From NCBI RefSeq assembly GCF_038025025.1, contig NW_027117343.1, positions 992,001-1,056,000 on the forward strand: a stretch of DNA of 64,000 bases. Direction: 5' to 3'. The stretch is from Phyllosticta citribraziliensis (taxonomy: Eukaryota). Below, piece after piece: positions 18,209 through 40,560 of this stretch; the stretch's first letter is position 1, and each line of letters opens with the position of its first letter. The notes below the pieces were generated by a model, which did not search any database, was not told where the DNA came from, and saw nothing but the letters and a program-made list of their open reading frames with translations. The position numbers were made by a program, and so were the translations under genes.

Positions 18209-20518
18209 ATGAACGACCCTGGCGTTGACGATCCTATCAACAACGCCGCCGAAGACCTCGAAAACAATGCCTATGAAAGCATCCGCCAACAAGTAGCAGA
18301 GGAGGAACATGATTTTCTCGATCCCAGGTGGGAATAACTCTCAGACTTCATCTGGTGTGCACTCTGACGACCACAGTCGGTGGTGGTTTGCGTCGACCGC
18401 CTGTCCACTCATCGCAGGAACATTCGGGCCCCTTGCCAACGCCTTTTCAATATGTGCGCTCGCGGTCAAATGGAGACTTTACATACCTCCAGGACATGAT
18501 GAAACTACGGGAGAATTTCTCAGCGATCCAGCCTGGTTAGATGTGTATCCCCGAGCATTGCCCTCTTGCTAATCATTGTGCAGGCTTCTCGCCATCAACG
18601 TCGTATCCCTGGTTTGCGCTCTTGTCGCAAACTTTTCTCTGCTACTGAACATGGCACGTCGACTGTCATTTAATGTTGCCCAGCCCATCACGATCGGTGG
18701 ATTCTCCGTTGCGTCGGTGCTTCTAATCGCGCTGGTCTGCGTCGCCTCCAGCTCACATTTCCGGTTGCAGCCGGCCGCATCTCACGCGCTTTCCCAAGCC
18801 TACTATTATGCAATTATTGCCGCGTCCATCTACGCCATTGTTGCTCTTCTAATGGTGCTGACCGTCTACGGAGCATCCAAGAATCACTATGCCAAAGAAT
18901 TCAGGCTGACAATAAGCCAACGTACGCTGATGCTCCAAACAATCAGTTTCACGGCCTATCTGCTACTTGGCGGGCTCGTTTTCAGCAGAATTGAGGGTTG
19001 GGATTTTCTGGATGGTATGTAAGTACCACACTCCAGATTAAGATTACATTCATTAGATATTATTCTTCAAGAAGTTAACCCCTCTCCAGATACTGGGCCG
19101 ACTACACATTACTCACCGTCGGTCTTGGCTCAGACTTTCCTCCAAAGACGCACCTCGGACGCTCCTTGCTCTTTCCTTTTGCTTTTGGAGGGATCCTCAT
19201 GGTGGGTCTGGTCATAGGCTCGATACGATCACTCGTGCTGGAACGCGGCAAAGCCAAAATCGACGCTCGAATGACCGAAATTAGACGCGAAAAAGTGCTC
19301 GAAAAGATTAGCGCCCAAAAGCGCATCGTCACTATTGGATACTTCCAGAAGGTGAAGTTTGTCCACTCAGGGCTGTCAGAGCTCGAGAGACGGGAGCAAG
19401 AGTTCGACGTCATGAGAAAGATTCAGTCTATTGCGCAAAAAAGACGACAGTACACAGCACTCCTCTTGTCCATACTAGCGGCCTGCATTTTGTGGTTCAT
19501 CGGTGCTGTCGTCTTCAAGGCTACTGAAGGGAAAAATCAAGCATGGTCTTATTTCGACGCACTGGTAAAGTTTTCCCAGCTACTGCGTGCGTGATCGACC
19601 TGCTGACCTTTTCAGTACTTTTCCTACACAAGCCTGCTAACCATTGGATATGGTGATCTTTATCCGCACAGCAATTCCGGTAAACCATTCTTCGTCATCT
19701 GGTCTCTTCTTGCCGTGCCGACGCTCACCATCCTGATCTCCAACATGGGAGACACGGTTGTGAAAAGCTTCGCAGATTTCACCATCTGGTTGGGAAGTCT
19801 TACCGTCCTACCCCACGAAAGCGGCATTCGGGCCACTGTCGAATCCAACCTAGCAAAACTACGCCAGAGCAGTCTTCTGAAGCGCGACGCAAGTCTTTCA
19901 GAAAATCAGAAGCCCTCTGGCCGTCGATCCGGTGCTAATGGGGAGCATTCAGAGGACTCCTTCGAAGACAAGAAAAGCCATCTCGACTCTGTGGCGCTGA
20001 ATCACCTGTCCAAGCACATTGAAGACGAAGAGCTATTGGAAGCGGAAGAAGCAGGCGAAAAAGGCGATACCTTGGAACGGGACATTCACTTTTATCATTT
20101 CGTTCTTGCCAAGGAAATTCGAAAGCTGATGCGCGACGCTGCGGCCTCGCCGCCCTGCCAGTACACGTACGCGGAATGGGCGTACTATCTCAAGCTAATA
20201 GGCCAAGACGAGGCTGACCCAGAACGCCATCGCAAACCGCCCATCAAGCCCAGACGCCGCCATCTTCATCAACACGATGGCGGACCCGACCTTGGTGTTG
20301 CTGGTGGTGATCCGGGAGAAGAGGGAAGCGGATACAGCTGGAGCTGGCTGGGAACCCGTAGCCCGCTGATGGGTAGCAAGTCGGAAGCGCAGTGGATACT
20401 TGAACGGATGAGTGCGACATTGGAAGCGGAGCTGAAAAAGATGAGGGCCAAGAACTACAAGGAGAACAGAGGGAAACCGCCTATCAGTATGGAAGACCTG
20501 CGACGTAAAAAATCGTGA
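18209..20518 (+). CDS. TOK1: Outward-rectifying two-pore-domain potassium channel TOK1 (4 introns)
   Basis: MNDPGVDDPI start; RWWFASTACPLIAGTFGPLANAFSICAL; LTISQRTLMLQT; pore loops YTLLTVGLGSDFPP and YTSLLTIGYGDLYP; C-terminal WSWLGTRSPLMG. Confidence 0.93.
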
Positions 20519-26500: not shown

Positions 26501-29204
26501 CGCGCGCGTGGTGGCTGCTGTCCGTGGGCTACAATATCCTTTTCCAGACCAGCGAATACGCATACGCGGTGGTGGCTGTTTTTATCTCGGACTTCTCTCG
26601 TCCGTCCGCTCGCTCGACAGTCCAGGTAGGTACCGTCGGCGTGGAAAACCACATCCACCTTCTACGCACCCTTGTCCTTCCCGCTCGTTCTTTTACCCCC
26701 CCCTCCGCCGCGGGCATCCTTGTCACCGACGGGCTGGGTTGGGCTGGAAGGATGGATCCTCGTGTCCGACTGTCCGCTCGCTCGAACCCCCGCGTCGGGT
26801 CGCTTCGGGTGGGGTGCGGTTGAGCCGGGCGGGCTGTTTTGCTTGTTGCGAAGGGATGGAAGTGAGAGCACAACCTCAACGGACGAGCTTCGCGGACGGC
26901 ACTTGTTCATCCGTGCAGGGCGTGTGGTGGTGCCGGCAGAGGATATCCTGATGGCTGCGCTCGTGAAATTCTCTTGCTGAGGATAGTCAAGCAAGCACCA
27001 AGTGGTCTGGGACACATGAGGGAGTTCTCTTTCTCTCCTTCACTCCTCCACTCTTTCTTGCCATGTGCATGCCACAGCAAGCACTCCTCCTCCACTCCTC
27101 ACTGCGATAATCTGGTCGGCGCGACCGAAAGTCTCTCGGCGCTCGCGCCTAAAACTACTCCATCCACGTTATTGTTCCCACCCCTTCCTCCCTTCCCTCC
27201 CGTCGCCCACTCACTGGCTCGCTGCTCTCTCCCAAACTCTCCTCGCAAATTCAAATCGACTTAGACATTTTCGCGTGGTCGTCGTCGTCGTCGTCGCGCC
27301 GTCAGTGCCCGCACCGCACAGCGAGCGACCAAGGTAGCCTTCCCGCCCTGCCCGCGCGCGGCGGCAGCTTAAGTTGGGATGATTGATTGAACGTGTGGCT
27401 CGGAACGTTGACCATGCCCGCGCCAAAGAAGCACGCATCCTTGTCTGGCTGAGCGCGTTCGTTTCTTCGTCCAGACCAGACCAGACCAGACCAACCAGGC
27501 AGCCCCACCACCACCACCACCGCCCCAGCGCAGACAGCCACGCAGAGGTTCCTCGCCGCCGGGCCCCGGGACGCGCGCGAAAAAACAGTGCGATCAGAGA
27601 TGACTTGCGCGGCCGAGACGCGGAAGGCCCGATGACTGAGCTTCTTTGCCATGTGCTGCGTTGGCTAAGTTGGCTGTCTTGCTACTTGATTGATTGATTG
27701 GCTGGCTGGCTGGCTGCACGCTCGCGAGCATGTGTGGAGGAGGGAGGGAGGGAATGGAAGCGCGCGGGTTGATGGTGCCGGGCCGCTGGGGACAAGTGAG
27801 CGACGAAGCAGTCAAGCAGGCAGGCGGGGTCAGATGGGCTGGCGTGCGTGCAGAGCAGAAGAAAGCTGACGAAGTGGCGCAGCTGGTGGTGGTGGTGGTT
27901 TTGGTGGATACGCGTTTTCCGTAGAGCTGGAGAGGGCTGTGGTTGGCTTGGTGGAATGGTGGTGCCTTTGGGCAGGTGTGCAGGGCAGAGAGCAGGCAGA
28001 GCAGGGCAGGCCGACGGCAGCTCTGCAGGGAACAGACAGCACAACGGCAATGCGACAGGTTTGTTGTGGGCTGATGTGGCCTTGATGCGGCCGCTGCGGC
28101 TGTGCAGTGTGTGTATGTGTGAGTGTGCTGATGCGTCGCTCTCCCGCGGCGTCGCTGCTATGTCCGAGAGAGAGTACCATGGTCCATGGATGGTGTCAGC
28201 CACGGGCAAGGGAGGGAGGGGTGGGAAAAGTGCGGCAACAGTAAAGCGCGAGCTCCCGAACGCTGAGGTGAGAAAATGGTTGGTCCGCCATCCGGCACAT
28301 CATGGGCTGTGCCGGACTTGTATCCATGGATGGCGTTTACATATTTTGCACAATTCGAGGCGGTGATTGGGTTGGTACCGGCAACGCGGGTTGGGCGGAT
28401 GGGGGGCATGGCATGGTACACAGGACGAGGGCTTCTCAGGCAACAGTGGCTGTAGTGCAGATGCGCATCTATTTCGAGAGGCATTGTATGCGTAGTATGG
28501 TGGAGAGCGCGCGCATGTGACGCTCGCTCAGAGTGATTAAATCTCCAAAAGGAAAATGAAGGAAAGCCTGTGGCCCCAAAAAAAAAACCCCCCCCCCAAA
28601 AAACAACTTCTCGCTGTACCAAAACAAAATCGGGGGATATCATCTCTCTGTGAAGAGAACCAAGAAGTGCAGAAAACAAAATGGCCACGCGTGGCTGTAG
28701 TGGCAGCCGGACGATCTACGCCGTTGCAAAAATAAAAAAGTTGGCCAAACACCTCGTGCTGTGCAGCTGCTGTTGTTGACGAGGAATCGAAATATAAAAA
28801 AAAAGGTCAAAAAGGATTCGAATGGAATATTCCTGGCGCCTGTCCCGAATGCTTTTTCTCGCAAGTGGCTCGTAACGTCGTGGGTCCTCCTCAATCAACC
28901 GGCAACAGGGCCTTCTCTTGCTCTCGCTCTTCCTTTCTCTCGGCCCTGGTGGCGGTGCCCAGCGTCATCCTCAAGTCGAATCGAGTGCTGGCTCGTCTGT
29001 CTGTTGAGCCTTGCTGATTGAAAGGGTGGTCTCCTCGAGGCAGGAAGCGCGTCGTCGCGGTCCTGGCATGGGCTGAATCAAAGGTCCGGACAGTGAATTG
29101 AGCGGGGTGGTTGGTGGTGGAATGGTGGTCAGGTCATCAACGGACGGCGGTGTCGAAGTGTTCAGGGATGCGGTCGATGTTGAGGTGGTTGAGCGGTTGA
29201 CGGC

Positions 29205-29417
29205 TCATGTCGTCTTGGGCGAGGTGGTCGGCGGCGAGTTGACCAGAGAGGCAAAGGAGCTGGTCAAGGCCGAGTAGGTGATTGCTGGAGAGGCGGCATT
29301 GGCGCTGGGAGAGCGTGCGGGAGCTTGCAAGTTGAGGGTGATGCACGAGGAACAGCGGCCGTTGGGAGAGTTGCAGCGGCCACGGCAGCCGCGCTCGTAG
29401 TTTGCGCAAGAGAACAT
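29205..29417 (-). CDS. Putative 70-aa cysteine-rich microprotein (C-x6-C-x3-C-x6-C-x2-C)
   Basis: ATG at 29417 in strong context (caaaATG); TTATAT element at 29505-29500; C-ending codon bias; product MFSCANYERGCRGRCNSPNGRCSSCITLNL followed by a Ser/Thr/Pro-rich tail. Confidence 0.7.
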   Translation of the reverse strand: MFSCANYERGCRGRCNSPNGRCSSCITLNLQAPARSPSANAASPAITYSALTSSFASLVNSPPTTSPKTT

Positions 29418-31777
29418 TTTGTTTTCGGAAAGGTGAAGTTGGTGATGGAGTGACGGAGCGTTGGAAGGCGAGGGCAGCATTGGACGGGGACTGGGACTGA
29501 TATAAGGCGCGTCCGGGCTCGCAAGGATACCTCACCATGTGGTTTCAGTGCTGGGCGCCATGGGCATGGGCATGGGCATGGGCTCCACTCGTGTGGGCGT
29601 CTTGTTCTGGCCATGCGCAAAGATTTCCATTGCAACCCCAGATCTCCACGACCGTGCCAGCCAGCCAGTCCAGGTCCAGGTCCAGGTCCAGGAACGCTCC
29701 CTGTCAGCCCCCGGCCCGCATTACGACGCCCGCCCTCTCTGTTCCGTTCTCTGCTGTGTCCGGGCTGTGTGCTTCTGCCTGCTCACCTCTCGACCGAACG
29801 GATCTCTCTCGCAAACCCCATCCGTCTCTCGTCCTCCCGTCGTCCTCGTCCTCGTCCTCCCTCGCTCGCCGATCCGCTCCACCTCCGCAGAAAATCATCA
29901 CCGGATCATCGACGATCCCCGTCCGACCTCTCAGCCTCTAGCACGTTCCTGCATCCGCGACTTTGAACGTGGCGTCAATAGAGCCTGCGCCAGCCCGCTG
30001 CGTACCCGTTGCACTTCGTCATCACCTCTGCCCACCATCACAACTCCTGCGCAACGAGCGAATGCCCCTGACGCCTCGCCTGAGAGCCTCCGAGAGGTTC
30101 CAATATTGGCCACAATGTGCCTGTCTCGTTTCAGCCGCCAACCCTCCGCCCGCCTCCTCTCCGACGGGCGTCTGTCGGCCGCCTAACATCATGTCCCTTC
30201 GCCCCAACAAAGACGTCTTGCAGCCTTCAGGGTCCAGCTGCCCGCGTGCTCTCTCCGACCGTCTGCCTTGTCGGGCATTTTTGACTTTCTGCCTGCCTGC
30301 CTGCCTGCCTGTGTGCTCCTCCGTGTTTCGGCGGCGGTTTCGTGCAAGAAGCACACAACCTTCCGTCGGGCGCTATCTTGGACATCGTGTTCCCCCCACG
30401 CCAGAAACTAGTCCAAGTCGACATCTCCTAAAAGCCGTATCAACATCAATTTGCATCTCGTATAGCGTCGACTCATTTTCGCGTCCGGGCTTGTCTTTGG
30501 AGACAGAGCGTTTCTGCAATCGAGAATATTCGTTCACACGGCTTTCCCTCTACCAGGACATGGGTTCCATCTACCACTGGTTTCTCCATTGAAACGCCCG
30601 CGTCCAACGTTTCACTCTCCATCTGTCGATTCTCCTAAACATCGCGCTCAATCGTCAACCGACCCCATCTTTCCAACTTCCCCTGAGCTCCTTGCACACA
30701 CTCCAACGCCCTTTGTTGCAATCACTTACCGCTTCCCCTAGGCAGACTCAGGACTCGTCTGATACGACAACACGTGGCCAACAAATGATGCCGTAGCCAA
30801 CCACCGTGCCAACTCCCATTCGCTGGATCCCTGCCGTCATTTGCCATCGACTTTCTGGTCGGACGCAACCGCCTTGGGTGGGTCTCGTTTATAGAGCACG
30901 AGCCATCGAAGCGCCTGAGAAAGAACGGTCTGGGCGGATGGCCTCCAGAATATCCCGCACGTCCTGCGCCTTTTGCCTCTCTCCAAATGATGCCAGTCTA
31001 GAATTTCTGGAGCTTCATTTATCTGACTCTTCTGACATGTCACCCCAAGTTCGCCCACGTCGAACGCGCAGCTACCGATGCCGGCGCGCGCTGACAAAAA
31101 CGAAAAAACCTGTCGTCGAGCAGACTCTTCAGACCAACGCCCGTGCGTGCGCTTGGGCTTCTGCTACTGCAGTCTTTACGCCTCTGCGATACGAGCTTTC
31201 AATTCCAATCACAATTCTTCGTTGCCCCATCCGATGGCAGCAAAACCAATTCCATCACCACTCACGACAATCGTCGTCGTGTCACGGGGGCGTTGCGTGG
31301 CAAAGCAAAATGCAAAACGTACAACAGCCGGGATTCGCTGCTGGTCACCCACGCAACTACTAATCGGCCGCAAGGTAGCTTATCTATGGAAGAGCGGACG
31401 GGGTTCCGAGTTTTCTACCTGCTATGGTCGTACGTGGAAGGAGCCGTCGCTGTTTTGATTTAAGACCTGCATTAGACACGACCTCCGGACCTTGCAAGCC
31501 AAACGGACGCCCCTTTCTTTCTTTTCTTTTTCATGAATCTGCATCAACGAGTTTCTCATTCTCAGACTAGTAAGTACTCCCTCAATGGTGATAGACTCAG
31601 CATCCGATCCAATTCGTTTAGGAGCCGTCAACATTACCCTTTTCCGTGGCCAGCAACTTCAGAGTATTCCGTACGCCACATTGCGCGCAAAAAAAGGCGT
31701 TCAGGATTCTCTCTTGACTACATTCCACATCGTGAACGAAACCTCGGCCCTCAAATTACAGATATAAACACCCCTAA

Positions 31778-33797
31778 TTACTTCTGCCTCGCTCCTTTCT
31801 GCTCTGGCAGTTCTACCGCCGAAGGATAATCGCCCGGCAGCTCGTGCGGGTTCACATTCATCCTCTCATGGCTGAGCTCCGCCGGCGTCTCCGCCCCATC
31901 AATCTCAACACGACTCTTGACCTCCTCATTTGCCGGCATTTCCGTCTTGCCGTCTGCCGGCAACTCCGTGCGATGCTGCCGCGCATGCAGCTCCCTCCCG
32001 CGGTCGTCTCCCTGCAGCTCCTCAATCGTCTTGTGCTGGCTCGCCATGGCAAAGGCGGCGCTATTTTCTTCTACCCTCTTCGCGTTGGTCCGTCGTCTTG
32101 CGCGGCAGCGCACGATGCAGAAGGATACGAGGACGATGGCGACGATGGCGGCGGCGCCGACGACAATGCCGATGATGGCTCCGATGCTCAGTGCTGGGCC
32201 GCTGTTGCTGCCGCTGTTGACGGAGCGGATGGGCACGATCTCGGCCGGTGCGCTGTCGTTCCAGACGCGTTGTGCGAGCGTGAAGTTGTGTCGCTCGTAG
32301 TCGGCGATGAAGTACGCTTCCTGGAGAAATGTGCGGCCAAGCGTGATCTGGAAAGGTCATTAGCAAAGACTTCTGGACGACGAGAGCGCAAAGACGCACC
32401 TGGGTCGAGTTGGCTGCGCGTTTCAAAGGGAAGAAGCGTTCCATTCCCGATCCGGGGATCGTGGGATACGACGCATTCAAGTCGAAAGCGCTGTACGGCA
32501 AAACAATGTCGACCGTCTTTCCCCCTGAAATCGAGCCCCCGAGACTAAAAGTGACGTTTGGATTCTCCGCCACCAGTCTTTCGTGGACAGTGGCATTGAC
32601 CAGGTATAACTGCGACGTCTCATTCCAGCTGATGCCAAAAGCGTTTTCAAACATCTCGCACGACTCGGACGGCAACCACAAGTTCGCCTGACTGGAATCG
32701 AGCGCTGCGAGCACCGGGGTCGGCAGCAGCGCTACGTCTCCATTGCTTCCGGTCTTCTGAATCGATTGAATGGCAACGACCAGTTCGCGGCCGTCGTCTG
32801 GTGTAAAGTCGAAAGACAGCTTGTCCGGACCTACCAACGACGCGTCATAGCCGCCGAAAATGAAGGACGCCCACGCGCTCCTCAGGGAGCCTGTCCTCGC
32901 ATACGAGCCAGCCGTGTAGCTGTAGGTGAGACTTGGTATCAGATTATTGTCTCTCAGCAAGGAAAAGAAGCTCGGTTGCTGTGTCCAAATTAGCCACGAG
33001 ACGAGGGCCCAAATTGTCCGACTTACTGGATCGTTCATGCTCGTTGCATTGTTGTTTTCCACGGTGAAGTTGGTGGGCCGCGGGCTGACGCCGAACTGAC
33101 CCACATAGAAGTTGAGAGTGTTCATTTGTGCGACAATACTGCGATTCAGTGTTGCGCTGTTGCCAGCGTTGAGACCGACCAATTCGTAACCTTGAAATGG
33201 CACTCGGTTAGCCAGATCTGCGCATGTTGAGGAATATATCTTGCTCGTTCTTTAATCATACCATACTGGCCTTGCTAAAAACTATCAGCCAGTGCAACAT
33301 TTCAGCGATTGGCCCTACACTTACTCCACTAATCCCGAGGCTGTCCAAAACAACTCCACCGAGGCCGTATATTCCCGTATTGTCCCAGATTTCGGTGGTT
33401 GACTGCCATGTCGAAGACTCATTTGCGCGAAAGAGACCTCCTCTTTTAGACGGACACTGGTCACCATTTGGATCCGAATCTACACAACCGCTCGGCGCCA
33501 CAACCCAAGTTTCTTGTCCTCCTATTGCAATGTGGACGCGCATCAGCTGCGACGGCGTGCCCACTCGAAGAGTAAAAGTACTCCATCTTCCGTCGCTACC
33601 GTCCCTAGCCGTCCAAACTGGTAAGTAATTGGTGCAAGAGCGCGTTACTAGGTACCCGAGGCGCGTACCAGTTTTGACTCGGATCGAGTACTATGGGATC
33701 TGGAGTCGTTTGTCTCCGGGACAATGTGGCGCCATCCGAAAGAGCATGGGAAACGGAAAGGAAAAGAATCGAGGCGCGTACCCACGACCAGAACATT
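31778..33797 (-). CDS. Pepsin-like (A1) aspartic peptidase-fold type I membrane protein, probably catalytically inactive; about 5 introns including a 13-nt microexon
   Basis: Signal peptide MFWSWVRASILFLSVSHA; WDGSDGRWSTFTLRVGTPSQ; FRANESSTW; IPSLTYSYTAG; FGGYDAS; ALDSSQANLWLP; TLGRTFLQEAYFIADYERHNF; TM IGAIIGIVVGAAAIVAIVLV. Confidence 0.88.
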
Positions 33798-34542
33798 GGA
33801 AGACAGCGCCAGAGCAATTGGATATAGGGACAGAAAGAAGGGACGAGAGGGAAAACGCGAGACCTCTACGGGTCTGCGCAGACGATTCAGCCCCGCGGTC
33901 CAGTGGTCGCTATTATTTGCGCGGGAAACCCGATCGACCGCGTCCGGCAACGACGACACGCCACCACCACCACCTCCACCGCACGGCTTGTCTTAGCGAC
34001 TCGGGACGAAGTCAACCCCCCAGGTTTAAAAAGGCAAGGGAGAGCCAATGGACGGCCAATGACGAGACGCTCACGTTGCGGACGACGTCGGTTTTGGCCC
34101 CCTCCAAGCCAGAAAAGCCAGCCGCCAAGAGCAACCGTGTAACGGACTGGCTGACTGGTCTCGTGTATTGCCTTGGCGTGCAAGGCCAACCGGGGAGTGT
34201 TTGCTCCATTCGTCTGTGAGGAGCCAGCTGCTCTTTTAACCCTCTGGCTGCGCTTCGTCCCCGTCCGCCCTGTGGCGCGCCCTGTCTCCTTGGCCCGGCG
34301 AGCTCGCTCAGCCCAGTAGCAGCAGCAGCACGCCATGCGTGGTACCAGCTATGTGGCGAGGTCGACGAGGGCCTACCTCATGGTACTCAGCCCTTCTATG
34401 CAAGTCTGACAGACAGCCGTGCCCATCGCCATGTCTGGGCATATAACTCCCGGGTCAGCTCTGTTCGCCCGCCTGGTCGAGGGGGCCGACGATCGTTTTG
34501 TTATATCCCGTCCAAGATTGCTTCGATTTGTCGCTTGCCAGC

Positions 34543-37760: not shown

Positions 37761-39043
37761 TTAGCCGTTACCAGGCGCAGCAACAGCCGCAGGCTTCCGC
37801 CAGTAAATCATCTGACCGGCCAGGGCATGAGGGTGGAGGTCAAAGTCGGGCATGGTGGCAACCCCCCTATTGCTGCTCAAGAAGGCCTCGGCGATTCCAA
37901 TGCATTTCCTCGTGCGATTATGGTCGTCGGTGTCCGAGGTGCTGCTGAGCAAGAAGACGATTGATTCAGCAAACCTTCGCATCGTGTATAGTTTCACCAA
38001 GGGAGAAGAATTACGAAGTTTGTTGTGTTGGTAATTGTGATGTTTAGATTCGAGACTGACCTGCTGTACTTCAACTGCGAGCGGCCCAGCTCCAGCATGC
38101 CGCCAATGTCGTTGCCAACGTACACCAGCGGATCGCGCGCCCTCAAAAACTCCTCCATCATGACAAAACTGGGCATGAAAGGCGCAAACACAAACGTCGA
38201 GTCTGCTATCAGCCTGGCCGACCCAGCATTTTCATCGTCCGCCGCCGCCGTCGCGGCCGCTCCTCCTTTTCGAGGCCGCACTATCTCGACGCCCAAGCTC
38301 GCCAGCACCTCTTCGTCCAGGGCGTTGAAAACGGGGTCTTCGGCGTACACCGGGACTGGCGTCGACGCCGATTTCCCCTTTGTTCCGCTGCTGTCGCTGC
38401 CGCCGCTCAGGAGCGCCACCATCTCGAGGAAGCATACCAACTGCCACATGCTCCTGACGCCGCCGGCAATGTTGTCGATGCTCAAGCTCCCCAGCCCCAG
38501 CACTACCGCGTTCTCGATCGTCCTGCTCGTCCTGCTCGCCCTGCTGCCTTGCGCCAGCCCCCACCATTCCTGATCTTCTGACTGCTGTTGCTGCTGCTGC
38601 TGCTCCCGCCGGCGCTTTGCGTCCAGATCTGTGCGCTCCAATAAGTCCCGCAGCTCGACCACACACGCGCTCTCGCGCCAGCGCTCGCGGAACGCGGCGA
38701 AGCGGTCCAGAAGCTGTTCCTTGGAGGTCCCGGGCATGATGGGCGCGGGACCGTTGGGCGTGTGCGTGGCGGCGAGGTCCGAGATGCGGAAGCGCGACAT
38801 TTTGTTCGTGGTGGAAACGAGGGTCCACCCGTCGTTGAGCGGTATGCGAGCTTGCTTGGATTTGCTGGGGGCCGGTTGGTGATGCGGCGGCGGTGGTTGC
38901 GAGGCTTGCGTCTCGAGCTTTTCGTGCTTGGGAGAGCGAATTGGAGCTGCAGAGAGAGCTGGCCGAGTGTGATTCGAGTCGGTGGAGGTGGTGTTGTTGT
39001 TTGCGACCTTTGCCGTAGTCCCGCGCGTTGGTTCGGATGTCAT
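37761..39043 (-). CDS. SRR1-like domain protein; one intron at about 38060-37948
   Basis: IENAVVLGLGSL, SMWQLVCF, VYAEDPVFNALDEEVLASLG, STFVFAPF; final exon ..PDFDLHPHALAGQMIYWRK..; internal polyQ. Confidence 0.75.
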
Positions 39044-39689
39044 GTTTGCAGCTAAACGAGGGCTGGCTGCGTTGGTCGCGTCTGGGGCGGGAGAAAGCGG
39101 TTCAGGCGGGCTGCGGTGCTGGCGCTGGGTTGCGCAGCTCCTCGTCTCGAAGGCGGAGCAACGGGTGTGCGTGTGATGTTTGGCGGTTGGTAGTGGTTGA
39201 GGGGATGATGCCGGTTGGAGCTGCGGGCGGCTGCGCCAGAGGCCATTGGTGAGGATCCCACGCGACGGGCCGACTGTCTATATCAACTGCTTCCTTCGCT
39301 CGCTTGATGGTGAGATGGTGAACGCGAAAAGGGAAACTGCAAAATGCGAATCATGTCGCTGCTGCTGACAAGCTGAACAAAGCCAGCTTTCGGCGAGGAG
39401 TTTCTCATACGACACCATGGCTGAGAGGGCCCTTGTCGTCCATCCGTGTATATCGTTGCTCTCCATTCATTGCATTTGGACTACCAAGACGGTCAACGTC
39501 GTACTTCAAACATTGGCTACTGGACATTTGCCTTTTGTGGTCTCTGGCGATATTTACAGCACAGACTTTTGGCTGCTGTGGACAAAAAAAAAACAACAAA
39601 AAAAAAAAAAAAACGAGAGAGGTATCAAATCCCAACGCTCCATCCCAAACCGAATCAAAAAGACAGCAAAGGGAACCGAGCGCTCCGTT

Positions 39690-40560
39690 TCAAAGCATCA
39701 TGAAAGCGACAAACATTATTGCGAGTGTGGGCAACAGCGTGTGGACGCGCACCGAGGGCAGCATTGTCTGAGCGCCGGAAAGACTGGACGTCGCAAAGAC
39801 CTGATCGAACGTGATGAGCTGGTCGGGCGAAGTCGTGTTGCGACAGTTGGTCTCGTTGACCTCGGCAACGTCTGCCGGATCGGCAAAGGTAATGTCGACA
39901 CACTGCAGACTGCAAGTCAGCGCCGGGCGCGATGGTACCAGTTCAAAAGAGTCACTCACGCTGTATAGGGCCGCGCCGTGCTTTGCCGTCTCAACCACTT
40001 GGATCGTCGCATTGTCGCCAATGTTGACAGAGATGTTGGTAGGTAGTGGCACCTGCGGGAAGCAGATTTCGCCAGGGTATTCATCGTTGGACGGTCCATT
40101 GATCTGGAAGACGGGGATCATGATGTGGCTCATGTTGAGAGGCTCCGTGCCCAGCCCCAGGTTGATGTACATGAGCGCCGTCGAGTGGCCAGAGAACCAG
40201 CCTGGCTGGACACCGACTGCTCCTCCACTGACTGGCCACTTGGTTCGGTTTGTACTGGTAGGCAAGCCGCCACCTGGAGACGTGTCAGTCAAAGACTGCC
40301 GCAGATGGCCTTTTCTGCCTCTCTTCATGCTGGGATAACATACAAGGATACATCCACTGCATGCCATAGGGATAAGAAGTGGTTCCATTGTCGTAGTCGA
40401 TCCCTATCGAGCCGGTGGGAATGCTTCCATCCGCATTGGTGCCATTCGTGTGCAAGTTGTTTCCTCTCCAGCCCGGATAAGTAATGACCGTGTGTGCAAC
40501 GACCAGCGGGGTCCAGCAAAGCGCCGCCACACAGGCAGCCAAGGGAGATATCCTCGACAT
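39690..40560 (-). CDS. GPI-anchored BIM1-like (LPMO-like) putative copper-binding protein; 2 introns
   Basis: Signal peptide ending VVA followed by His (HTVITYPGWRGNNL); YGMQWMYPCGG; TNRTKWP; QPGWFSGH; GDNATIQVVE..HGAALYSCVDITF; hydrophobic C-terminus. Confidence 0.8.

What the first reader, a model, noticed from the sequence alone, without database searches (positions are those of the whole stretch)
29205..29417. Isolated Cys-rich microprotein as the only convincing gene in an ~11 kb stretch
Seen: a 70-aa ORF with strong start context, an upstream TATA-like element, five cysteines spaced C-x6-C-x3-C-x6-C-x2-C, no signal peptide and a low-complexity S/T/P tail. CANYERGC resembles the CxNxxxGC knuckle of TRAF/SINA-type zinc fingers. 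From memory, similar MFSCxN..GCRGRC proteins occur as unannotated hypotheticals in other filamentous ascomycetes (unverified). Inference: an uncharacterised zinc- or redox-binding regulatory microprotein that gene callers often miss.
Basis: partly seen in the sequence, partly recalled or inferred. Interest (0 to 1): 0.7.

Follow-up and report, generated by a model that had tools for sequence, protein, structure and literature searches.

The report
Unnamed fungal four-cysteine zinc-finger microprotein
This is a real gene for a 70-residue protein from an unnamed family shared by many filamentous fungi; four fixed cysteines probably hold one zinc ion, and its design suggests a small regulator whose target is unknown.

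Summary
The ORF is real and lies on the minus strand (29417-29205). It has close relatives in Phyllosticta and belongs to an unnamed family found in four classes of filamentous ascomycetes. It shows purifying selection (pN/pS 0.30 and 0.18 in two blocks, 25 genes). Deep contig cover ends about 26 nt upstream of the ATG, a weak hint of the transcript start. (1) Only four cysteines are conserved (C-x6-C-x10-C-x2-C); Cys15 is C in 17 of 56 distant members. (2) It is not a TRAF/SINA finger: only the C-x6-C knuckle resembles one. (3) The tail holds a second conserved motif (YSAxTSSFASL) and an R-x-x-S site. The 11 kb gap also holds a 5S rRNA gene. No Pfam family, solved structure or paper was found; public records call it hypothetical and often mis-model it. 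Best reading: a one-zinc finger with a disordered, phosphorylatable tail and a docking motif, acting as an intracellular regulator. It resembles Ecl1 in design but is not an Ecl1. Zinc binding, translation and partner are inferred, not shown.

The parts
29205..29417 (-). Coding sequence, 70 aa plus TGA, one exon in this lineage
   Evidence: Translation; relatives at 97-99% in Phyllosticta; no joints in four laid runs; single copy by two protein searches
29328..29417 (-). N-terminal four-Cys finger, residues 1-30: C4, C11, C22, C25 as likely zinc ligands; N6 and R9-G-C-R-G-R14 near-invariant; C15 variable
   Evidence: Column counts in 56 distant members; alignments; pN/pS 0.30; model with hairpin 4-7/10-13 and helix 23-28, pLDDT 73.5
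29304..29315 (-). R35-S-P-S38: candidate basophilic-kinase phosphorylation site at the start of the S/T-rich linker
   Evidence: [RK]-x-x-S within residues 30-48 in 62 of 79 in-frame members; shuffles mean 35, max 49 of 1000 runs; members are related, so not independent
29244..29276 (-). Second conserved motif YSALTSSFASL (residues 48-58): candidate docking helix
   Evidence: pN/pS 0.18 in 25 genes; present in 62 of 79 in-frame members, starting anywhere from residue 45 to 119; low-confidence helix 50-59; absent from the Eurotiomycete and Pezizomycete rows
29418..29444 (-). Probable 5' leader of about 26 nt; apparent transcript start near 29443-29444
   Evidence: Run X1 has an adapter-like loose end at 29443 and a contig of run X15 ends at 29444; weak hint, no DNA run was laid
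29499..29505 (-). TATA-like box TTATATC, 88 nt upstream of the ATG
   Evidence: Sequence; TATA-like word within 400 nt upstream in 23 of 25 relative loci, no shuffle control; aligned
29526..29543 (-). Possible degenerate copy of a promoter element conserved in relatives (consensus CTACATCATCGGGC) just upstream of the TATA box
   Evidence: Aligns at the same place; scores only 2.6 bits against 12.5-29.8 for the 17 training sites, but is the best same-strand score in 2 kb; 0.16% of window positions reach 2 bits
28500..29204 (-). Probable 3' untranslated region of 600-700 nt
   Evidence: X1 cover runs down to about 28500, with an adapter-like loose end at 28498; X15 contigs reach 28593

Best explanation
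The gene encodes an intracellular microprotein with three parts. Residues 1-30 fold around one zinc ion held by C4, C11, C22 and C25: a short hairpin, a loop, and a CxxC at the start of a helix. The finger presents a fixed basic face (N6, R9, R12, R14, K/R21). A disordered Ser/Thr-rich linker with an R-x-x-S site follows, then a short motif (YSAxTSSFASL) that probably becomes a helix on binding a partner. Most likely it is a transcriptionally controlled, phosphorylation-tuned adaptor or inhibitor of a signalling or gene-regulatory protein, in the manner of fission-yeast Ecl1. Shown: reading frame, conservation, selection, three-part layout. Weakly shown: transcription and its start. Inferred: translation, one-zinc fold (about 0.85), phosphorylation, protein partner and regulatory role (about 0.5 overall).
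For: C4, C11, C22, C25, N6, G10, G13 and R14 are invariant in 56 of 56 in-register distant members, R9 and R12 in 55. The family spans four classes. Substitutions concentrate at third codon positions (0.31 against 0.12 and 0.11); pN/pS is 0.30 and 0.18. All 36 metagenome loci start ATG-TTC with no upstream in-frame ATG. Two AlphaFold runs give the same hairpin and helix. No named fused domain among 30 longer hits; three longer named records read were short genes with run-on flanks. The second motif survives long linker insertions, as a docking motif would. Promoter words are conserved in relatives: ACATCATC in 12 of 14 upstream regions against 0.3 in shuffles. Precedent: Ecl1, 80 aa, four zinc-binding Cys, pulls down with the TORC1 subunit Mip1 (PMC11984688, passages and section 2.6).
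Against: No metal binding, translation or partner was measured. Model confidence is moderate (pLDDT 59 full length, 73.5 domain), cysteine geometry could not be read, and three fold searches gave nothing useful. The two laid runs on record as RNA (X7, X8) did not cover the ORF; the two that did are of guessed or unknown kind. The second motif is absent in Eurotiomycete and Pezizomycete members. One partial record lacks C22 (P0104) and one has a one-residue insertion between C4 and C11 (P0124). The basic face fits nucleic-acid binding equally well. The R-x-x-S count is inflated by relatedness and a Ser-rich background.
Confidence: 0.5

Rival explanations
1. The same one-zinc finger binds nucleic acid (DNA or RNA) through its invariant R-G-C-R-G-R hairpin; the tail recruits or blocks other factors. 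It might act on its own conserved promoter element.
For: Near-invariant R9, R12, R14 and K/R21; net charge of residues 1-30 is +3 here, median +2 in 64 rows; treble-clef-type fingers include nucleic-acid binders (PMC4999995, first part read).
Against: No match to Zn2Cys6 or GATA DNA-binding domains: probabilities 2.9% and 1.1%, and 74 of 200 column-permuted controls reached the Zn2Cys6 score. A single 30-residue finger offers little sequence specificity (general knowledge). The promoter element is degenerate in this genome.
Confidence: 0.25
2. A metallothionein-like metal buffer or a thiol redox sensor whose cysteines are the working part, with Cys15 as a reactive thiol.
For: Small, no signal stretch, five Cys within 25 residues; very deep contig cover over the gene in run X1, though contig depth measures expression poorly; Cys15 is kept in 22 of 25 locus genes.
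Against: Only 4 fixed Cys in 70 residues; many non-Cys positions and a Cys-free motif are under equal constraint; Cys15 is V, T, S or A in 39 of 56 distant members.
Confidence: 0.15
3. A derived TRAF/SINA-type or A20-type finger acting as a stand-alone ubiquitin-system adaptor.
For: CANYERGC aligns with CPGQELGC in the genome's own TRAF-type protein; a hairpin followed by CxxC at a helix start recalls A20 fingers (recalled).
Against: zf-TRAF, zf-A20 and Sina_ZnF do not hit the locus. The genome's TRAF fingers end in H-x3-C, absent here, and the family profile scores 0.2 bits on that protein.
Confidence: 0.07
4. The RNA is the functional product and the ORF is incidental or untranslated.
For: No ribosome or peptide data were available; long 3' region; conserved words in the relatives' flanks.
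Against: Codon-position bias and low pN/pS; frame kept across an intron found in other classes; only the ORF aligns between the window and 17 relative loci at DNA level.
Confidence: 0.03

Closest known systems
Uncharacterised 'hypothetical proteins' of filamentous ascomycetes (for example IWZ02DRAFT_384262, LEMA_P008590.1, PAAG_04935, PISL3812_04188)
   Same: Same family: M-[FY]-S-C-x-N-x-x-R-G-C-R-G-R-x-N-x4-[KR]-C-x2-C at the N-terminus of 59-80 aa proteins.
   Different: None of the named records seen has a functional name or precomputed Pfam domain. Members outside Dothideomycetes mostly have another tail motif and appear to have an intron after codon 26.
Ecl1 family (fission-yeast Ecl1/2/3; Pfam PF12855)
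   Same: Works-like analogue: about 80 aa, four N-terminal zinc Cys with a helix after the third, phosphoregulated, protein-binding regulator (PMC11984688, passages and section 2.6). The genome's own Ecl1 also has an S/T-rich tail.
   Different: Ecl1 spacing is C-x2-C-x10-C-x3-C. PF12855 hits other loci in this genome, not this one; profile comparison probability 0.08%. No link to TORC1 was tested.
TRAF/SINA zinc fingers (PF02176, PF21361)
   Same: C-x6-C knuckle ending in G-C.
   Different: No His ligand, single finger, no RING or MATH domain; models do not hit.
Treble-clef zinc-finger fold group, including A20-type fingers (PF01754)
   Same: Two ligands from an N-terminal hairpin and two from the start of a helix (PMC4999995 definition).
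   Different: No CPxCG knuckle, no predicted primary hairpin in the 10-residue loop; PF01754 does not hit; fold searches blank.

Membership tests
TRAF/SINA zinc finger | Match to PF02176 or PF21361 | tested here: not met
   Own-genome searches: 0 of 4 and 0 of 1 matches at this locus; a true TRAF-type protein is found elsewhere
TRAF/SINA zinc finger | C-x6-C knuckle ending G-C | tested here: met
   CANYERGC aligns with CPGQELGC, 8 columns, probability 0.12%
TRAF/SINA zinc finger | H-x3-C as third and fourth ligands | tested here: not met
   Family has C-x2-C in 56 of 56 in-register members; own TRAF fingers have H-x3-C
A20-type zinc finger | Match to PF01754 | tested here: not met
   The single weak match is on another contig; absent from Pfam scans of 44 and 64 members
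A20-type zinc finger | Ubiquitin binding | not tested
   No job was run
Ecl1 | C-x2-C-x10-C-x3-C and match to PF12855 | tested here: not met
Ecl1 | Small protein, four N-terminal Cys, S/T-rich tail | tested here: met
   PMC11984688 passages
Ecl1 | Binds Raptor and inhibits TORC1 | not testable with these tools
   Needs pull-down and kinase read-out
Zn(II)2Cys6 cluster | Six Cys, C-x2-C-x6-C-xn-C-x2-C-x6-C, and match to PF00172 | tested here: not met
   Not among 134 own-genome matches; profile probability 2.9%, reached by 74 of 200 controls; weak E 0.021 in 2 of 64 members
Treble-clef fold group | Two ligands from an N-terminal knuckle, two from a helix N-terminus | tested here: inconclusive
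   Secondary structure fits; coordinates not available; no structural match for the 35-residue model
Treble-clef fold group | CPxCG knuckle and primary beta-hairpin | tested here: not met
   Spacing is C-x6-C and the loop 14-22 has no predicted strands
Metallothionein | Cys-rich throughout, with little other constraint (recalled) | tested here: not met
   4 fixed Cys in 70 residues; strong non-Cys constraint
Any zinc finger | Measured zinc binding | not testable with these tools
   Needs metal analysis of a peptide

The most novel reading that the evidence does not exclude
An old, single-copy, abundantly expressed microprotein with a zinc-finger type not yet catalogued (C-x6-C-x10-C-x2-C with an RGCRGR face) is a dedicated regulator of a core nutrient or developmental pathway in filamentous ascomycetes. 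It would be switched on through a conserved, unnamed promoter element, tuned by phosphorylation, and act through a lineage-specific docking helix: an Ecl1-like device that arose independently and has escaped study because gene models of it are often wrong.
Probability: 0.25. Interest if true: 0.75.

Novelty: new variant of a known kind. Interest (0 to 1): 0.5.

Why it matters
Stand-alone zinc-finger microproteins are known, but this family has no Pfam model, no solved relative and no paper in the searches run, although it is kept in four fungal classes that include moulds, crop pathogens and morels. A short protein with an invariant surface, a separable second motif and a conserved promoter element is easy to test by deletion, point mutation and pull-down. 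If it regulates a core pathway it adds a missing layer to fungal signalling. If not, it still supplies a new zinc-finger spacing and corrects many gene models.

Tried and rejected
Family and structure searches without a useful hit: Pfam for the protein (only DUF5546, below its cut-off) and for 44 and 64 members (best E 0.008, scattered); PDB sequences (0 hits); ESM Atlas (three unnamed Ascomycota clusters of 82, 285 and 79 members, recognition score below the tool's mark; no named hit for residues 1-32); Foldseek and VIA-align. Homodimer prediction with zinc gave no answer; it is no evidence either way. A Zn2Cys6-derived origin was considered after and rejected. The 91-aa form from the upstream ATG was rejected as unlikely. 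A conserved neighbourhood or a uORF role was not supported: no synteny between the window and 12 long loci, although several relatives share downstream inositol-phosphatase-like, SDR and TBC genes. A paralogue on contig C2 (E 0.46) was not followed and did not appear with a second query. Two exact genome matches to the promoter consensus, against 0 for the reversed pattern, defined no regulon. Literature: no paper held the motif words, 9 locus tags from records plus one tag that I guessed, or the promoter words together with a second term; one search was badly posed (three terms required); searches listed nothing on this family; one search found only a Zn2Cys6 pattern table (PMC7295025, passages). 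Supplements were not searched, and expression tables there may list members under other tags.

Full report
Observation. The coordinates read on the minus strand give a 70-residue ORF ending in TGA at 29205-29207. The five cysteines, the A at -3, the TTATATC box at 29505-29499 and the S/T/P/A-rich tail (72% of residues 31-70) are as described. Of 421 Met-started ORFs of 50-120 aa in the window, only this one has five Cys in its first 25 residues. An in-frame ATG lies 21 codons upstream. The gap from the potassium-channel gene ending at 20518 (Ion_trans_2) to the next gene ending near 31778 is about 11.3 kb. None of 24 other ORFs scanned in it has a Pfam hit, but a 5S rRNA gene lies at 31316-31435.

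It is a gene. The first search gave 22 of 22 candidates as relatives: three Phyllosticta records at 97-99%, then other Dothideomycetes and Drechslerella. Two protein searches found one copy in the 31 Mb genome. A metagenome scan confirmed 36 loci among 123 candidate stretches. All 36 begin ATG-TTC and none has an upstream in-frame ATG. I dropped 12 loci (10 protein duplicates, one extended duplicate, one truncated) and added the window, leaving 25 genes. Mean pS and pN were 0.54 and 0.16 for residues 2-30, and 0.67 and 0.12 for the 11-residue second motif; variation by codon position was 0.12, 0.11 and 0.31. These are uncorrected proportions with pS near saturation, so the true ratios are probably lower.

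Transcription. I laid 4 of 24 listed runs. In X1 (RNA is a guess) summed contig depth was 52,000-269,000 over 28510-29418, 200-1,500 in flanking bins and 0 at 28106-28408 and 29520-29822. Loose ends that I recognise from memory as sequencing adapter lie at 28498 and 29443. In X15 (kind unknown, another study) three contigs tile 28593-29444. No joint was seen. This suggests an unspliced RNA of about 0.9 kb starting about 26 nt before the second ATG, which would exclude the upstream ATG. The hint is weak: no DNA run was laid, the runs were chosen by this stretch, contig depth ranks genes poorly, and the two runs on record as RNA (X7, X8) did not cover the ORF.

Family. A profile of 44 members found 82 representatives at E up to 0.001. 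I set aside 3 already seen and 20 long multi-stretch hits that matched only the middle of the profile, and examined 59. Of these, 56 carry C-x6-C-x10-C-x2-C in register; the other three are an offset start, a partial record lacking C22 and a one-residue insertion. In the 56, C4, N6, G10, C11, G13, R14, C22 and C25 are invariant, while position 15 is V 22, C 17, T 9, S 4, A 4. Named members include Aspergillus, Talaromyces, Paracoccidioides, Coccidioides, Cladophialophora, Morchella, Tirmania, Ascodesmis and Pyronema. Morchella is a Pezizomycete and Drechslerella an Orbiliomycete; the other class labels are recalled. I saw no named Sordariomycete, Leotiomycete, yeast or basidiomycete, but many records are unnamed. 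Many distant records change frame after residue 26, and P0100 differs from P0061 mainly by a 19-residue insertion there; I read this as an intron that the Dothideomycete genes lack. The 30 longer hits carry no precomputed Pfam domain, and three named ones read in full are the short gene with run-on flanks.

Anatomy. AlphaFold gave strands 4-7 and 10-13 and a helix from 23 in both runs (pLDDT 59.1 full length, 73.5 for residues 1-35), and a low-confidence helix at 50-59. Among 79 in-frame, dereplicated proteins (of 140 with the finger), 62 have [RK]-x-x-S within residues 30-48 (shuffles: mean 35, max 49) and 62 have the YSA motif, starting anywhere from residue 45 to 119. The set is rich in Dothideomycetes and its members are related. 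Eurotiomycete and Pezizomycete tails carry other short motifs.

Promoter. In 14 less redundant upstream regions, the window among them, ACATCATC occurs in 12 (shuffle mean 0.3; highest count for any 8-mer in shuffles 6) and ACGCCAAC in 8. The first usually sits about 30 nt before a TATAT box. The window lacks the exact word; a degenerate copy at the matching place scores 2.6 bits. I could not name the binding factor.

Mechanism. The layout of a fixed zinc finger, a variable disordered linker with a kinase-type site, and a short constrained motif fits an intracellular adaptor or inhibitor best (0.5). Nucleic-acid binding by the basic hairpin is the main rival (0.25), then a metal buffer or redox sensor (0.15), a ubiquitin-system finger (0.07) and a non-coding RNA (0.03). 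None of translation, zinc binding, phosphorylation or partner binding was shown.

Comparison with known families. No Pfam family, PDB sequence or fold matched; a blank for a 35-residue model says little. TRAF, SINA, A20, Ecl1 and Zn2Cys6 models were each run over the own genome and none hit this locus; the TRAF, Ecl1 and Zn2Cys6 models found true members elsewhere, while SINA and A20 had no match over their cut-offs. The TRAF likeness is confined to the knuckle. The Zn2Cys6 likeness of residues 15-29 is no better than permuted controls. The closest functional analogue is Ecl1, a lead taken from another note of the scan: an 80-residue four-Cys zinc protein that pulls down with Mip1 and inhibits TORC1 (PMC11984688, passages and section 2.6). 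Its spacing differs and the profile comparison gives 0.08%, so this protein may work like Ecl1 but is not one. The treble-clef definition was taken from PMC4999995 (first fifth and passages) and is only partly met. A review of hidden fungal genes (PMC11413187, passages) has no occurrence of 'zinc' or 'cysteine' in its main text.

Novelty. Searches for the motif, locus tags, Cys spacings and promoter words found no paper on the family; supplements and subscription papers were not searched. The scan's own index gave nothing by sequence or relatives. The protein exists in public records as hypothetical, so the gene is not new, but the family and its finger are undescribed as far as these searches reach. 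Verdict: new variant of a known kind, interest 0.5.

Noticed in passing
window 31316-31435 (-): Dispersed 5S rRNA gene (Rfam RF00001, 85.8 bits) inside the 11 kb gap, about 1.9 kb upstream of the microprotein gene.
   Followed up: no
   Followed up: no
L003-L037, upstream of the homologous ATG: Conserved promoter element CTACATCATCGGGC before the TATA box and a second element CCAAG..ACGCCAAC further up; binding factors unknown.
   Followed up: partly
L050:9707-9720 (G000:C7:645706): One exact match to the promoter consensus lies about 1.7 kb upstream of a bZIP gene that looks like cpcA/GCN4 (Pfam bZIP; identity recalled from the basic region). Probably chance.
   Followed up: partly
L046:1415-1560: Two tandem, diverged copies of a roughly 80-nt unit, each starting with CAACTACATCA, in a long intergenic stretch; the second continues like the promoter element of loci L036 and L037.
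   Followed up: partly
L003-L038, 3' of the stop codon: Shared 3' words in relatives (ATCGATCG and TTAGCGAC in 7 of 18 regions against 0.1 in shuffles, ATATACCA in 6), at about the highest count any word reached in shuffles.
   Followed up: no
window 29301-29417, run X15 record 13: A 339-nt contig with 16 differences over the finger and unrelated flanks: a homologue from another organism in that sample.
   Followed up: no
window 31778-33800 (-): Neighbouring spliced gene resembling a membrane-anchored pepsin-like protease (recalled); no Pfam or PDB sequence hit for the exons tried.
   Followed up: partly
window 29552-29584 and 29663-29691: Short hexamer repeats (CATGGG and GTCCAG units) upstream of the gene.
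   Followed up: no
window 39690-40403 (-) and 37994-39277 (-): BIM1-like copper-acquisition domain and SRR1 domain genes about 9-11 kb upstream.
   Followed up: no
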